Origin: the human T2T-CHM13v2.0 reference genome, Homo sapiens
DNA length: 64,000 nt
Direction: 5' to 3' (one strand)
Assembly (NCBI RefSeq): GCF_009914755.1
Contig: NC_060933.1
A program made the position numbers and the translations under genes. Numbering within the stretch: position 1 is the first letter of the stretch; each line of letters opens with the position of its first letter. The notes below the pieces were generated by a model. That model ran no database searches, had not been told where the DNA came from, and saw nothing but the letters and a program-made list of their open reading frames with translations. Below, piece after piece: positions 14,931 to 51,215 of the stretch.

Positions 14931-15276
14931 AGCACAATTCTCCTCTTTTTGCTACTCCTCCTTGTAATCCTCATTATTCACCTCTGTATTCCCTATAGCA
15001 TCAGTCTGAGCACGTTGTGGGTAACAGACACTTGAGGCATGACTATGGGATGAATAGAATTGTGTTCTAAGTCTGTATTACCCGAGTATCTACTGGAAGT
15101 TCAGAGGAGTAAGAAGAAGGTTAAATCTCACTTGCTATCTTGAAGGTGCTCCCCTGGTTACTGCATCACAACTTAACTCTGGCTCTCATCAAAGCTCCTA
15201 TACTTTGGCTGTCTCCCATTAGAAATGCAATCACTCTCAGCATTTATTGAATTGATAACTTTATTAAAGAATTGAG

Positions 15277-16310
15277 GTTAGAGCCAAGATGGCTGAACAG
15301 GAACAGCTCCAGTCTACAGCTCCGAGTGTGAGTGACGCAGAAGACGGGTGATTTCTGCATTTCTATCTGAGGTACCGGGTTCATCTCACTAGGGAGTGCT
15401 AGACAGTGGGCACAGGACAGTGGGTGCAGCCCACCATGCATGAGCTGAAGCAGGGCGAGGCATTGCCTCACTCGGGAAGCGCAAGGGGTCAGGGAGTTCC
15501 CTTTCCTAGTCAAAGAAAGGGATGACAGACGGCACCTGGAAAAACGGGTCACTCCCACCCTAATACTGCGCTTTTCTGACGGGCTTAAAAAATGGCGCAC
15601 CAGGAGCTTATATCCCGCACATGGCTCGGAGGGTCCTATGCCCACGGAGTCTCACTGATTGCTAGCACAGCAGCCTGAGATCAAACTGCAAGGTGGCAGC
15701 GACGCTGGGGGAGGGGTGCCCACCATTGCCCAGGCTTGCTTAGGTAAACAAAGCAGCTGGGAAGCTCAAGCTGGATGGAACCCACCACAGCTCAAGGAGG
15801 CCTGCCTGCCTCTGTAGGCTCCACCTTTGGGGACAGGGCACAGACAAACAAAAAGACAGCAGTAACCTCTGCAGACTTAAATGTCCCTGTCTGACAGCTT
15901 TGAAGAGAGCAGTTGTTTTCCCAGCACGTAGCTGGAGATCTGAGAACGGGCAGACTGCCTCCTCAAGTGGATCCCAGACCCCTGACCCCCAAGCAGCCTA
16001 ACTGGGAGGCACCCCCTGGTAGGGGCAGACTGACACCTCACATGGCTGGGTATTCCTCTGAGACAAAACTTCCAGAGGAACGATCAGGCAGCAGCATTCG
16101 CGATTCACGAAAATCCACAGTTCTGCAGCCACCGCTGCTGATACCCAGGGAAACAGGGACTGGAGTGGACCTTTAGCAAACTCCAACAGACCAGCAGCTG
16201 AGGGTCCTGTCTGTTAGAAGGAAAACTAACAAACAGAAAGGACATCCACACCAAAAAACCCATCTGTACATCACCATCATCAAAGACCAAAAGTAGATAA
16301 AACCAAAAAG
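15277..16310 (+). promoter_or_regulatory. L1 5'UTR internal promoter
   Basis: YY1-type CAAGATGGC at the start, splice donor CTGAG|GTACC at 15371/15372, and a retained ~129-bp segment at 16057-16184. Confidence 0.85.
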
Positions 16311-17327
16311 ATGGGGGAAAAACAGAGCAGAAAAACTGGAAACTCTAAAAAGCAGAGCGCCTCTCCTGCTCCAAAGGAAGGCAGTTTGTCACCAGCAACG
16401 GAACAAAGCTGGACGGAGAATGACTTTGACGAGTTGAGAGAAGAAGGCTTCAGACGATCAAACTACTCCGAGATACAGGAGGAAATTCTAACCAAAGGCA
16501 AAGAGGTTGAAAACCTTGAAAAAAATTTAGATGAATGTATAACTAGAATAACCAATACAGAGAAGTGCTTAAAGGAGCTGATGGAGATGAAAGCCAAGGC
16601 TCAAGAACTACTTGGAGAATGCAGAAGCCTCAGGAGCCGATGCGATCAACTGGAAGTAAGGGTATCAGCGATGGAAGATGAAATGAATGAAATGAAGTGA
16701 GAAGGGAAGTTTAGAGAAAAAAGAATAAAAAGAAACGAACAAAGCCTCCAAGAAATATGGGACTATGTGAAAAGACCAAATTTACGTCTGATTGGTGTAC
16801 CTGAAAGTGACGGGGAGAATGGAACCAAGTTGGAAAACACTCTGCAGGATATTATCCAGGAGAACTTCCCCAATCTAGCAAGGCAGGCCAACATTCAGAT
16901 TCAGGAAATACAGAGAACGCCACAAAGATACTCCTCGAGAAGAGCAACTCCAAGGCACATAATTGTCAGATTCACCAAAGTAGAAATCAAAGAAAAAATG
17001 TTAAGGGCAGGCAGAGAGAAAGGTCGGGTTACCCACAAAGGGAAGCCCATCAGACTAACAGCTCATCTCTTGGCAGAAACCCTACAAGCCAGAAGAGAGT
17101 GGGGGCCAATATTCAACATTCTTAAAGAAAAGAATTTTCAACCCAGATTTTCATATCCAGCCAAACTAAGCTTCATAAGTGAAAGAGAAATAAAATCCTT
17201 TACAGACAAGCAAATGCTGAGAAATTTTGTCACCACCGGGCATGCCCTACAAGAGTTCCTGAAGGAAGCACTAAACATGGAAAGGAACAGCTGGTACCAG
17301 CCACTGCAAAATCATGCCAAATTGTAA
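16311..17327 (+). pseudogene. L1 ORF1p pseudogene with one premature stop
   Basis: MGEKQSRK...QNHAKL, with an in-frame TGA at 16698-16700 (probably CGA>TGA CpG decay). Confidence 0.95.
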
Positions 17328-17390
17328 AGACCATTGAGGCTAGGAAGAAACTGCATCAACTAATGAGCAAAATAACCAGCTAACATCATA

Positions 17391-21196
<3,806 letters not shown>

Positions 21197-21689
21197 ACAA
21201 TGAGAACACATGGACACAGGAAGGGGAACATCACACACCGGGGCCTGTTGTGGGGTGGGGGGAGGGGACAGGATAGCATTAGGAGATACACCTAATGCTA
21301 AATGACGAGTTAATGGGTGCAGCACACCAGCATGGCATATGTATACATATGTAACTAACCTGCACATTGTGCACATGTACCCTAAAACTTAAAGTATAAT
21401 AACAATAATAATAATAAATTGAGAGATTTATAAAATGGTATCATATATCAGTCTACATAGCTTCTGTGAGTTCCCAGATTTTCATTTTCATTCATTCATT
21501 CGTGCTGTCTCTCTCTTTCTCTTTCTCCTTCTCTCTCTTCATTCATCCATCCTTTTATTCCGGCCCTGGTATTCTCACCCATGCTTACCCTTGAAAAATC
21601 CAAGTAGTTTTATTATTTTAATATTCTGACTGCAACTGTGCTAACAACAATAATAGCAGCGTTCCCCTGCCACATCTTTCATTTCTATG

Positions 21690-26249: not shown

Positions 26250-27150
26250 AGCATAATGTCTAGGGCTAGGTGACCTGAATTTAAGCCTCTGCCTCTTACT
26301 GACTGCGTGACCTTGAGCAGGCTACTTAGTTCAACTTTCGTCATCTGCAAAATGTGGCTGCTATAACAATACTTCTAAAAGTTTTGAGGATTAGGGTTGG
26401 TTCCAAGTCTTTGCTATTGTGAATAATGCCGCAACAAACATACGTGTGCATGTGTCTTTATAGCAGCATGATTTATAGTGCTTTGGGTATATACCCAGTA
26501 ATGGGATGGCTGGGTCAAATGGTATTTCTAGTTCTAGATCCCTGAGGAGTCGCCACACTGACTTCCACAATGGTTGCACTAGTTTACGGTCCCACCAACA
26601 GTGTGAAAGCATTCCTATTTCTCCACATCCTCTCAACCCAAATGTCCATCAATGGTAGACTGGATTAAGAAAATGTGGCACATGTACACCATGGAATACT
26701 ATGCAGCCATAAAAAATGATGAGTTCATGTCCTTTGTAGGGACATGGATGAAATTGGAAATCATCATTCTCAGTAAACTGTCGCAAGAACAAAAAACCAA
26801 ACACCGCATGTTCTCACTCATAGGTGGGAATTGAACAATGAGAACACTTGGACACAGGAAGGGGGACATCACACTCTGGGGACTGTGGTGGGGTGGGGGG
26901 AGGGTGGAGGGATAGCATTAGGAGATATACCTAATGCTAGATGACGAGTTAGTGGGTGCAGCGCACCAGCATGGCACATGTATACATATGTAACTAACCT
27001 GCACAATGTGCACATGTACCCTAAAACTTAAAGTATAAAAAAAATTAAAAAAAAACAGTTTTGAGGATTAAATAGATTGTGGGTAAAGCCATCAGGAAAG
27101 TGAGTAGAACACAGTGGCGAACAGTACATGTTCATGCATTATTATAATTT
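26250..27150 (+). mobile_element. MIR split by the L1 insertion (26250-26393 and 27071-27150)
   Basis: CTGCGTGACCTTGAGCAGG...TCATCTGCAAAATG...TTTTGAGGATTA, resuming as AATAGAT...GTAAAGC after the L1. Confidence 0.75.
26394..27056 (+). mobile_element. 5'-truncated, 5'-inverted L1PA2-like insertion
   Basis: 26394-26633 is antisense ORF2 end and 26634-27056 is the sense 3' end plus poly(A). 14-bp TSD AGTTTTGAGGATTA at 26380-26393 and 27057-27070. Confidence 0.96.
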
Positions 27151-29650: not shown

Positions 29651-29800
29651 ATTATATTACATTGTCGTAAGATAAACACAGATATAGTCCAGATCCATAT
29701 CTCATGGTAAATCTAGACTTCATATTGGATGAAGTGCTAGATTACCTCTAAAAGCTTTTCAGCTGACTAGAGTATAAACCTACAATTAAAAAATTTGGCC

Positions 29801-31041
29801 TTCTTTTGAAAAATGTTTGTTCATATCTTTTGCCAACTTTTTGATGGGTTGTTTGTTTTTTTCTTGTAAATTTGTTTAAGTTCCTTGTAGATTCTGGATA
29901 TTAGCCATTTGTCAGATGGGTAGATTGCAAAAGTTTTCTCCCATTCTGTAGGTTGCCTGTTCACTCTGCTGATAGTTTCTTTTGCTGTGCAGAAGCTCTT
30001 TAGTTTAATTAGATCCCATTTGTCAATTTTGGCTCTTGCTGCCATTGCTTTTGGTGTTTTGGTCATGAAGTCTTTGCCCATGCCTGTGTCCTGAATGGTA
30101 TTGCCTAGGTTTTCTTCTAGGGTTTTTATGGTTTTAGGTCTAACATTTAAATCTTTAATCCATCTTGAGTTAATTTTTGTATAAGGTGTAAGGAAGGCGT
30201 CTAATTTCAGTCTTCTGCATATGGCTAGCCAGTTTTCCCAACACCATTTATTTTATGCAGTCAACAAACGTATAAAAAAAGCTCATCATCACTGATCATT
30301 AGAGTAATGCAACTCAAAACCACAATAAGATACCATCTCACACCAGTTAGAATGGCGATCATTAAAAAGTCAGGAAACAACAGATGCTGGAGAGGATGTG
30401 GAGAAATAGGAATGCTTTCACACTGTTGGTGGGAGTGTAAATTAGTTTAGCCATTGTGGAAGACAGTGTAGCGATTCCTCAAGGATCTAGAACCAGAAAT
30501 ACCATTTGACCCAGCGATCCCATTACTGGGTATATACCCAAAGGATTGTAAATCATTATACTATAAAGATACATGCACATGTATGTTTATTTCAGCGGTG
30601 TTCACAATAGCGAAGACTTGCAACTAACCCAAATGCCCATCAATGATAGACTGGATAAAGAAAATATGACACATATACACCGTGGAATACTATGCAGCCG
30701 TAAGAAAGGATGAGTTCATGTCCTTTGCAGGGACATGGATGTAGCTGGAAACCATCATTCTCAGCAAACTAACACAGAAACAGAAAACCAAACAGCGCAT
30801 GTTCTCACTCATAAGTGGGAATTGAACAATGAGAACATATGGACACAGGGAAGGGAACATCACACGGGGGCCTGTCAGGGGTTGGGGGCAAGGGAAGGGA
30901 TAGCATTAGGAGAAATACCTAATGTAGATGATGGGTTGATGGGTGCAGCAGACCACCATGGCGTATATATACCTATGTAACAAACCTGCACATTTTGCAC
31001 ATGTATCCCAGAACTTAAAGTATAATTTAAAAAAAGAAAAG
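29801..31041 (+). mobile_element. 5'-truncated, 5'-inverted L1PA7/8-like insertion
   Basis: 29801 to about 30252 is antisense ORF2 and about 30252-31041 is sense through the poly(A). Degenerate TSD AAAAAATTTGGCC (29788-29800) versus AAAGAATTTGTCC (31042-31054). Confidence 0.93.
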
Positions 31042-43802: not shown

Positions 43803-44167
<365 letters not shown>

Positions 44168-44385
44168 TCTTTTTTTTTTTTAATTTAAGTTTTAGGGTAC
44201 ATGTGCACAACGTGCATGTTTGTTATGTATGTATACATGTGCTATGTTGGTGTGCTGCACCCAGTAACTCGTCATTTAACATTAGGTATATATATCTCCT
44301 AATGCTATCCCTCCCCACTCCCCCCACCCCACAACACGCCCCGGTGTGTGATGTTCCCCTTTCTGTGTCCATGTGTTCTCGTTGT

Positions 44386-48212
<3,827 letters not shown>

Positions 48213-48275
48213 TACGATGTTAGCTGGTTATTTTGCTCATTAGTTGATGCAGTTTCTTCCTAGCCTCGATGGTCT

Positions 48276-49222
48276 TTACAATTTGGCATGTTTTTGCAGT
48301 GGCTGGTACCAGTTGTTCCTTTCCATGTTTAGTGCTTCCTTCAGGAACTCTTTTAGGGCATGCCTGGTGGTGACAAAATCTCTCAGCATTTGCTTGTCTG
48401 TAAAGGATTTTATTTCTCCTTCACTTATGAAGCTTAGTTTGGCTGGACATGAAATTCTGGGTTGAAAATTCTTTTCTTTAAGAATGTTGAATATTGGCCC
48501 CCACTCTCTTCTGGCTTGTACAGTTTCTGCCAGGAGATCCGCTCTTAGTCTGATGGGCTTCCCTTTGTGGGTAACCCGACCTTTCTCTCTGGCTGCCCTT
48601 AACACTTTTTCCTTCATTTCTACTTTGGTGAATCTGACAATTATGTGTTTTGGAGTTGCTCTTCTCGAGGAGTATCTTTGTGGCATTCTCTGTATTTCCT
48701 GAATCTGAATGTTGGCCTACCTTGCTAGATTGGGGAAGTTCTCCTGGATAATATCCTCCAGAGTGTTTTCCAACTTGGTTCCATTCTCCCCGTCACTTTC
48801 AGGTACACCAATCAGATGTAGATTTGGTCTTTTCACATAGTCCCATATTTCTTGGAGGCTTTGTTCATTTCTTTTTATTCTTTTTTCTCTAAACTTCTCT
48901 TCTTCATTTCATTCACTTGATCTTCCATCACTGATACCCTTTCTTCCAGTTGATCGAATTGGCTACTGAGGCTTGTGCATTCGTCACATAGTTCTCATGC
49001 CTTGGTTTTCAGCTCCATCAGGTCCTTTAAGGACTTCTCTGCATTGGTTATTCTAGCTAGCCATTCATCTAATTTTTTTTCAAAGTTTTTAACTTCTTTG
49101 CCATGGGTTCGAACTTCCTCCTTTAGCTCGGATTAGTTTGATCGTCTGAAGCCTTCTTCTCTCAACTCGTCAAAGTTATTCTCCATCCAGCTTTGTTCCA
49201 TTGCTGGTGAGGAGCTACGTTC
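48276..49222 (-). pseudogene. L1 ORF1p pseudogene lacking codons 1-22
   Basis: Begins at the splice junction (ERSSSPAMEQSWMEN...) and ends ...QKHAKL, with internal lesions. Confidence 0.92.
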
Positions 49223-51215
49223 CTCAGTTGGAAATGCAGAAATCACCCGTCTTCTGCATCACTCATGCTGGGAGCTGTAGACTGGAGCTGTTCCTATTCG
49301 GCCGTCTTGGCTCCCAGACCTGTCTTCTTTCTCTCCCCACTAACAGGATAGGACCTGATTCAATGAACTTCATTTCAAAGCTAGTGGAAAAACCTGGTTT
49401 TTCATAGATTTACATAGAAGAGCTCAAACTTGATATGTCTTGATGACTAGTGAAGAAATTTTTATTTAATTTTTAAGTATTCCAATAAAATATTTTAAAT
49501 ATTATATTAAGAAATAGTAAATAATATAATCATATTTAAATGTGTATGAACACATGTGGTCATACTGTCGACCAGGATTTCTTCTGGGGAAGCATAAACA
49601 GTCATCATTTAAGCTACTATTTAAATTATTTTAAGATTAACTTCCAAACAGAACAACATTAAAAAGCCTAATTCTCACCTGCATAACGTTGCTCTGGAAA
49701 TCACTGTCTCCATTTAAGAAGTGCTTCTATTTAGCAAGAATTTTTTAAAAAGTGCCAATGTTTAATTCTCTAGACACGAACCATCAAATGTATATGTATG
49801 TCCCAAATAAGGTGGCAACTTCACCGAAGCCAGTTTTTTAGCTTGTATATGGTTTACAATAGAATGCTAATTCTCTTGACATTAATGCATGTTTATTTAT
49901 ATGCAACCAAAAATGATTGAAAATAAAAAGTGTCGAGTAATAAATTATGTGAAATAGACATATTGAAAAAGTGAAATGATATAAAACTGCATATAAAAAA
50001 TAATCACAGCATTTTTTCTAAATGGATGCCTGATTGGTTTTATACTCTCCCTGAAGATTTTCCTTCAGCCTCGAAGGATAAATTACACAAAAAGGCCAAG
50101 TTTACATTAATCTGCAAGCTGACATTTTTATAATAAAAAGAGAAAAATGTTTAAGTAGTACTAAGTGTTGGTCAGAGTGTCAAAAAGCAGCAGACTAGAA
50201 AAGGAGGGTTGAAGTTCCATCTTCTTTAATTTGTGCAGGCAGAAACCAGGAAATTTAAAACTAAAAACTATATTCTGCTAGTGAACATTGCTTATAAATA
50301 ATAATAATAATAGTCAGCCCTTCAGAACAAATTTAGTCTGTCTTAAAGTCATCTACATTTAGTTGATGAATTAGCTGCATGATTTATTAATAACCCCTAT
50401 GGATAAACTTGGGCCAGGGATTCAGAAATTTGGGGAAGGGCATTAACTTGTGTGTAGGTCTAGCTCTTTGTAGACACCGGTTATGTTTTAATGGCTGGAA
50501 GAATCATTGCCAAAATCATCGAGAGTACAAAAATGCACATCTAATGGCTCAACATCTAATGGCCCCACTTATGACCATGAGTTCTAGCTATCAAAGAAAA
50601 TACAAGCAATCAGGAAAGATTTAACCACCTCACCTGTGATCTATCTGTCCCTGTATCTCTATTGCCTGACAGCTGTCCTGTGAGTAAGTGTAAACTGTAC
50701 ACATACCTAACTAACGTCAACCCATCCCATCTCCTTTCAGCGGCTCAAGGACATGACTCCAGCAATTGCCTCTTCTCTCCTGCATCTTGATTCTATCCTT
50801 TCTGTGAGATCATCTGCATAAATTCAAAACATCCTGTCATATCTGCATCTTTCAAAAATCCCCTTTTGGCCCCACATTCCTCCCAAGGTTCTGCCCATTT
50901 TTCTATTCTTCTGTATAACAAAACTTCTCAGAAGAGTTACCTGTGTTCAGTGTCTTTACATACTCATCTCCTATTGTCTCTTGAGCCCTTCCCTTTGGGA
51001 CTTTGTGTCCATCTCTCCCAAACAGCTCTTGTCAAGACAGTTCAAGGCCTCTTTGCTGCCAAATCCAAAGGAAAGTTCTTAGGCCTGTTTGCATCAGTCT
51101 CCTGAGCGCTGTACACCTGGTCTCTCCCTCCTACAAGGTGCCCTCTTTTTCCTTGGTTTCTAAGGCCCTGTTCTCAGAGGTTCCCATCTGTCAGGCTGGC
51201 CCCTCCTTCTAATGC

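What the first reader, a model, noticed from the sequence alone, without database searches (positions are those of the whole stretch)
49180..49320. L1-B is a spliced retrotransposed L1 (SpIRE, 97/976 type)
Seen in sequence: the minus strand reads ...GCATTTCCAACTGAG|GAACGTAGCTCC..., with the junction at 49223/49222. In the unspliced L1-A the same flanks are CTGAG|GTACC (donor GT at 15372) and CTCTCCTGCTCCAAAG|GAAG (acceptor AG ending at 16376). About 1005 nt is therefore missing exactly at GT...AG boundaries, including most of the promoter and ORF1 codons 1-22. The 5' end and a 12-bp TSD are intact. Established knowledge: spliced integrated retrotransposed elements (SpIREs) using the +97 donor and an acceptor in ORF1 have been described. 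Inference: this RNA could not make full-length ORF1p, so it was mobilised either by an N-truncated ORF1p (in-frame ATG at codon 35, WMEN) or in trans. The copy is essentially promoterless.
Basis: partly seen in the sequence, partly recalled or inferred. Interest (0 to 1): 0.7.

Follow-up and report, generated by a model that had tools for sequence, protein, structure and literature searches.

The report
Spliced LINE-1 copy, known SpIRE class
This dead LINE-1 jumping-gene copy lacks exactly one intron-like stretch, most likely because a spliced RNA was pasted back into the genome; the class is already described, but this copy is not in the published list, which holds 11 of the at least 29 such copies in this genome.

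Summary
Confirmed. L1-B (minus strand, 43858-49332) joins 98 nt of 5'UTR to ORF1 codon 23 at 49223/49222. Against unspliced L1-A, 1005 nt from GT (15372) to AG (16376) are missing. This is the SpIRE97/976 junction of Larson et al. 2018 (PMC5860796). The same junction occurs at 29 loci of this genome with unrelated flanks. The copies do not form one clade (AU p 9.5e-51), so the event recurred; splicing explains this better than deletion at the 3-nt AG|G microhomology. All 11 published loci were recovered. This locus and 17 others are not in that table; 17 of these 18 are under 95% identical to a young-copy probe, and the paper's cut-off was over 95%. The copy has a 12-bp TSD, a young Alu in its tail and broken ORFs. 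Ape orthologues could not be checked. Verdict: an unlisted member of a known class; low interest, plus a modest census update.

The parts
43858..49332 (-). L1-B with both TSD copies: SpIRE97/976, dead
49321..49332 (-). 5' copy of the 12-bp TSD; inferred EN site TTCT/C on the bottom strand (the TSD's 5' edge is ambiguous by 1-2 nt against the poly(A))
49223..49320 (-). Exon 1: 98 nt of 5'UTR ending at the donor position; first ~6 nt divergent; the AAGATGGC core near the 5' end (YY1 site, label recalled) carries a T-to-C change
49222..49223 (-). Splice junction GAG|GAA, joining the 5'UTR to ORF1 codon 23
48276..49222 (-). ORF1 remnant from codon 23; ATGs at codons 30, 35 and 91; stops at codons 52 (49135) and 98 (48997); 4-nt loss near 48903 shifts the frame
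44386..48212 (-). ORF2 remnant, broken into pieces of 49-416 aa by stops and frameshifts
44168..44385 (-). 3'UTR and poly(A) tail
43870..44167 (-). Young Alu (23 CpG in 281 nt) inserted later into the L1 tail; own 14-bp duplication at 44168-44181 / 43867-43880
43858..43869 (-). 3' copy of the L1 TSD
15372..16376 (+). Comparator only: the 1005-nt GT...AG stretch in unspliced L1-A that is absent from L1-B

Best explanation
L1-B is a near full-length LINE-1 copy that lacks exactly the stretch between the 5'UTR donor and the ORF1 acceptor, most likely because a spliced L1 RNA was reverse-transcribed into this site (SpIRE97/976). Shown here: the junction, the TSD, the poly(A), an EN-like site, broken ORFs, and the same junction at 29 loci spread across the L1 tree. 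Inferred: a full-length L1 of roughly L1PA4-PA6 age was transcribed in the germline and spliced from G98U99 to A974G975 (L1.3 numbering). ORF2p was likely made from this RNA, and ORF1p was likely borrowed from another L1. Target-primed reverse transcription then inserted the copy. It lost most of its promoter at birth, later decayed, and an Alu inserted into its tail.
For: Junction at the GT/AG of L1-A. Identical junction at 29 of 29 spanning loci (26 GAG|GAA, 3 GAG|GAT); none keeps the donor's T; all flanks differ. A single origin is rejected: 13 label changes, at least 6 forced by starred branches, 0 of 200 bootstrap trees with one clade, AU p 9.5e-51 on 29 spliced vs 18 unspliced rows. Between the two L1-A regions tested there are 1654 breakpoint pairs with microhomology of 3 nt or more and 28 with 6 or more, so AG|G is not special as a microhomology. 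Larson 2018 defines this junction and shows cis failure and trans rescue.
Against: The 3-nt microhomology makes this one junction formally ambiguous, and the sequences after donor and acceptor are loosely alike. My searches were aimed at this junction, so I did not count how often other microhomology pairs recur. The trans-complementation data come from L1.3 in HeLa cells, not from an older element in the germline. No ape orthologue and no source RNA was examined.
Confidence: 0.95

Rival explanations
1. A full-length L1 inserted first and later lost about 1 kb by a microhomology-mediated genomic deletion that happens to end at AG|G.
For: 3-nt microhomology at the junction; loose similarity after donor and acceptor.
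Against: The same base-exact junction at 29 loci that are not one clade. Many equal or longer microhomologies are available. No spanning copy keeps the GT.
Confidence: 0.02
2. Reverse transcriptase jumped from the acceptor region to the donor region during insertion (template switch on unspliced RNA, ORF1p made in cis).
For: Microhomology and loose similarity as above; it would remove the need for ORF1p in trans.
Against: All 29 junctions fall within the AG|G, none at the longer shared tract about 15 nt downstream. The paper treats these sites as spliced in RNA, citing Belancio 2006 and 2008 (those papers were not held).
Confidence: 0.02
3. Spliced origin, but mobilised in cis by a shortened or re-headed ORF1p: from the AUG at codon 30 or 35, or from a non-AUG start in exon 1, whose frame is open and in phase with ORF1 in the least-decayed copies and encodes an arginine run.
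For: ATGs at codons 30 and 35 in this copy; exon-1 frame in phase with ORF1.
Against: No cis retrotransposition and only 33 and 27 kDa products in Larson 2018. Codon 35 is ACG or ACA in 12 of 29 copies and codon 30 is ACG or ACA in 17 of 29, the pattern of CpG decay. Exon 1 has no in-frame AUG, and an open frame of 29 codons is not rare by chance (inference).
Confidence: 0.06
4. L1-B is a second-round daughter of another already spliced copy.
For: A SpIRE97/622 at RAP1GDS1 regained activity from a host promoter (10.1101/2025.02.02.635956, passages).
Against: No spliced copy is its supported sister on either tree. Its six closest fetched relatives (94.7-95.4%) are unspliced and the best spliced one is 94.6%, though those six were picked for closeness. 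It carries no visible host-exon 5' extension.
Confidence: 0.03

Closest known systems
SpIRE97/976 (Larson et al. 2018, PMC5860796; first reported by Belancio et al. 2006/2008 as cited there)
   Same: Same donor and acceptor, same 66-nt ORF1 loss, TSD within the 6-25 bp range, poly(A), EN-like site.
   Different: This locus is not among the 11 in S1 Table or S1 Data. It is 92% identical to a young-copy 100-nt probe, below the paper's cut-off of over 95%.
SpIRE97/622, 97/790 and 97/853 (same paper)
   Same: Same donor; promoter-deficient insertions.
   Different: Those splice within the 5'UTR and keep ORF1; the 97/622 RNA tested could move once in cis. This one cuts into ORF1.
Processed pseudogenes (general knowledge)
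   Same: Spliced RNA copied into DNA by L1 proteins, with TSD and poly(A).
   Different: The template is L1's own RNA and likely supplied its own ORF2p.

Membership tests
SpIRE97/976 | Junction joins the G98U99 donor to the A974G975 acceptor, removing ORF1 nt 1-66 | tested here: met
   same junction as the published clones. Numbering taken from the paper; L1.3 itself was not aligned.
SpIRE97/976 | Target site duplication of about 6-25 bp | tested here: met
   12 bp, twice in the window
SpIRE97/976 | 3' poly(A) tract | tested here: met
   Present, interrupted by a later Alu
SpIRE97/976 | L1 EN-type cleavage site | tested here: met
   TTCT/C, a variant also listed in S1 Table; edge ambiguous by 1-2 nt
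SpIRE97/976 | Over 95% identity to an L1.3-based 100-nt probe (the paper's search filter, not a biological trait) | tested here: not met
   92 of 100 against the youngest published copy used as a stand-in; two published clones also score 92-93%
SpIRE97/976 | Junction present at insertion (no full-length orthologous allele) | not testable with these tools
   The genome has no relatives here
SpIRE97/976 | Reduced promoter activity; needs ORF1p in trans | not testable with these tools
   Bench assays; shown in the paper for L1.3 constructs
L1PA4 subfamily | Diagnostic positions against the consensus | not testable with these tools
   No consensus library. On the tree it sits among or just outside the paper's PA4-labelled clones, on the older side.

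The most novel reading that the evidence does not exclude
SpIRE97/976 is at least 2.6 times as common as published (29 against 11) and reaches into L1 lineages older than any listed copy (two copies are only 83-85% identical to L1-B in ORF1). L1 RNAs without a working ORF1p have therefore been mobilised again and again through much of primate L1 history, many without the codon-35 AUG. The set is a natural record of how often ORF1p acts in trans in the germline.
Probability: 0.75. Interest if true: 0.35.

Novelty: new member of a known kind. Interest (0 to 1): 0.2.

Why it matters
Little for this locus: it is a dead, promoter-deficient copy, antisense within a predicted lncRNA with no exons in the window. 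The by-product is more useful. The published count of this class is too low, and a full census by subfamily would give an in-vivo estimate of splicing plus trans-complementation, the leak in L1 cis-preference.

Tried and rejected
Single-master or second-round origin of the spliced copies: rejected. The 800-nt tree held non-L1 tails in two rows, so it was redone on 500 nt; locus L037 was left out of both because it holds no ORF1. L028, a partial match, proved unspliced and was not counted. Three more junction queries from an old, a middle and a young copy gave no new full-span locus (40 of 980, 40 of 547 and 36 of 36 candidates scored). Their partial matches were not fetched and are assumed unspliced. 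A strong-context AUG at codon 30 as the original start: unlikely, CpG-decay pattern. Belancio 2006 and 2008 were not held, so their lists rest on Larson's statement that ten loci were known before. Literature searches found no later SpIRE catalogue; most subscription journals are not covered. The 3' ends and TSDs of the other 17 unlisted copies were not examined. Earlier scan findings were not available.

Full report
Observation. On the minus strand L1-B reads exon 1 (49320-49223, 98 nt) straight into ORF1 sequence at 49222. A blastn of L1-B against the window splits its match to L1-A in two: the first ~95 nt hit 15281-15375, and the rest hits 16375-21405 at 93.5%. The missing part is L1-A 15372-16376, 1005 nt, starting GT and ending AG. 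L1-A's ORF1 starts at 16311, so 66 nt, codons 1-22, are gone. The junction has 3 nt of microhomology, so this locus alone does not separate splicing from deletion.

Anatomy. A 12-bp TSD flanks the element (49321-49332, 43858-43869) and occurs exactly twice in the window. The inferred nick site is TTCT/C. An Alu with 23 CpGs in 281 nt (other Alu stretches in the window: 1-9) sits in the poly(A) tail with its own 14-bp duplication, so it came later. ORF1 has stops at codons 52 and 98 and a frameshift; ORF2 is in pieces. The AAGATGGC core near the 5' end (YY1 site, label recalled) is changed in this copy, as in 1 other of the 24 copies where the motif was found.

Recurrence. A 161-nt junction query gave 19 near-full-span matches among 40 scored of 1500 candidates. 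A 70-nt query scored 40 of 85. Two 31-nt patterns with up to 3 mismatches gave 20 and 25 loci, with 0 for the reversed controls. The union is 29 loci: 25 and 4. One of them (C1:172.59 Mb) keeps only 12 nt of exon 1 and is the weakest. All 29 have different 5' flanks and the same junction: 26 GAG|GAA and 3 GAG|GAT; none keeps the donor T. Three further queries added none; the count is still a lower bound.

Independence. On a 500-nt ORF1 tree of 29 spliced and 18 unspliced copies, the label changes 13 times, at least 6 changes are forced by well-supported branches, and one clade is rejected (AU p 9.5e-51; the 800-nt tree agrees). The six closest fetched relatives of L1-B (94.7-95.4%) are unspliced and the best spliced copy is 94.6%. 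Those six were chosen for closeness from 40 scored of 5606 candidates, so this point is weak alone. The L1-A regions tested offer 1654 breakpoint pairs with microhomology of 3 nt or more, yet all spanning copies use the one that is GT-AG. My searches targeted this junction, so recurrence at other pairs was not measured.

Known work. Of Larson et al. 2018 (PMC5860796) I read the abstract, Results part 1 of 4, sections 13, 14, 15 and 21, Discussion part 1 of 2, part 1 of the supporting legends, S1 Table whole, and passages of S1 Data and the main text. It names this junction SpIRE97/976 and lists 11 loci, none on chr9. A 16-nt flank of L1-B is absent from S1 Data. All 11 published loci match members of my 29 by their flanks (10, clone 7). 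So 18 are unlisted, this one included. The paper required over 95% identity to an L1.3 probe. Against the youngest published copy as a stand-in, 9 of 11 listed copies reach 95% and 17 of 18 unlisted ones do not; L1-B scores 92%. Two other papers were seen as passages only and hold no catalogue there. 'SpIRE97' occurs in one paper of the library. Belancio 2006 and 2008 were not held.

Mechanism. Shown in the paper for L1.3: the splice removes 66 nt of ORF1, yields 33 and 27 kDa ORF1p, gives no retrotransposition in cis even under CMV, and low-level retrotransposition when wild-type ORF1p, but not ORF2p, is supplied. Inferred for L1-B: a rare splice of a full-length transcript, ORF2p in cis, ORF1p in trans, then target-primed reverse transcription. 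Exon 1 is in phase with ORF1 and open in the least-decayed copies, but it has no in-frame AUG and the paper reports no product of that size.

Age. Not tested against consensus sequences. L1-B has a terminal branch of about 0.03 and sits among or just outside the paper's PA4-labelled clones, on the older side, so roughly L1PA4-PA6 (inference). Ape orthologues were not available.

Verdict. A real SpIRE97/976 (0.95), unlisted but ordinary. Interest 0.2; the census of at least 29 is the only addition.

Noticed in passing
window 43870-44167 (-): Very young Alu in the L1-B tail (23 CpG in 281 nt, 14-bp duplication). From recall it looks like the AluY/Ya lineage; it may be human-specific or polymorphic.
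   Followed up: partly
L023 (G000:C5:87.68 Mb) and L025 (G000:C7:96.06 Mb): Two much older copies with the same junction (83-85% identical to L1-B in ORF1), likely from a lineage older than any published SpIRE97/976.
   Followed up: partly
L058, L041 exon 1 (window equivalent 49223-49309): The exon-1 frame is open and in phase with ORF1 in the least-decayed copies and encodes an arginine run; no in-frame AUG.
   Followed up: partly
L045 (G000:C1:172.59 Mb): Keeps only 12 nt of exon 1 and about 615 nt of ORF1 match; its 5' flank looks like antisense L1 (by eye), so it may be nested or inverted.
   Followed up: no
window 46838-46861 against L1-A 18745: 23-nt length difference in ORF2 between L1-B and L1-A; direction not determined.
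   Followed up: no
window 15274-21420 (+): L1-A is full length with the long 5'UTR (donor-to-acceptor 1005 nt, against 878 by L1.3 numbering) and has an in-frame stop in ORF1.
   Followed up: partly
window 29800-31037 and 26390-27044: Two 5'-truncated L1 pieces, each with an internal inversion (twin-priming pattern), seen.
   Followed up: no
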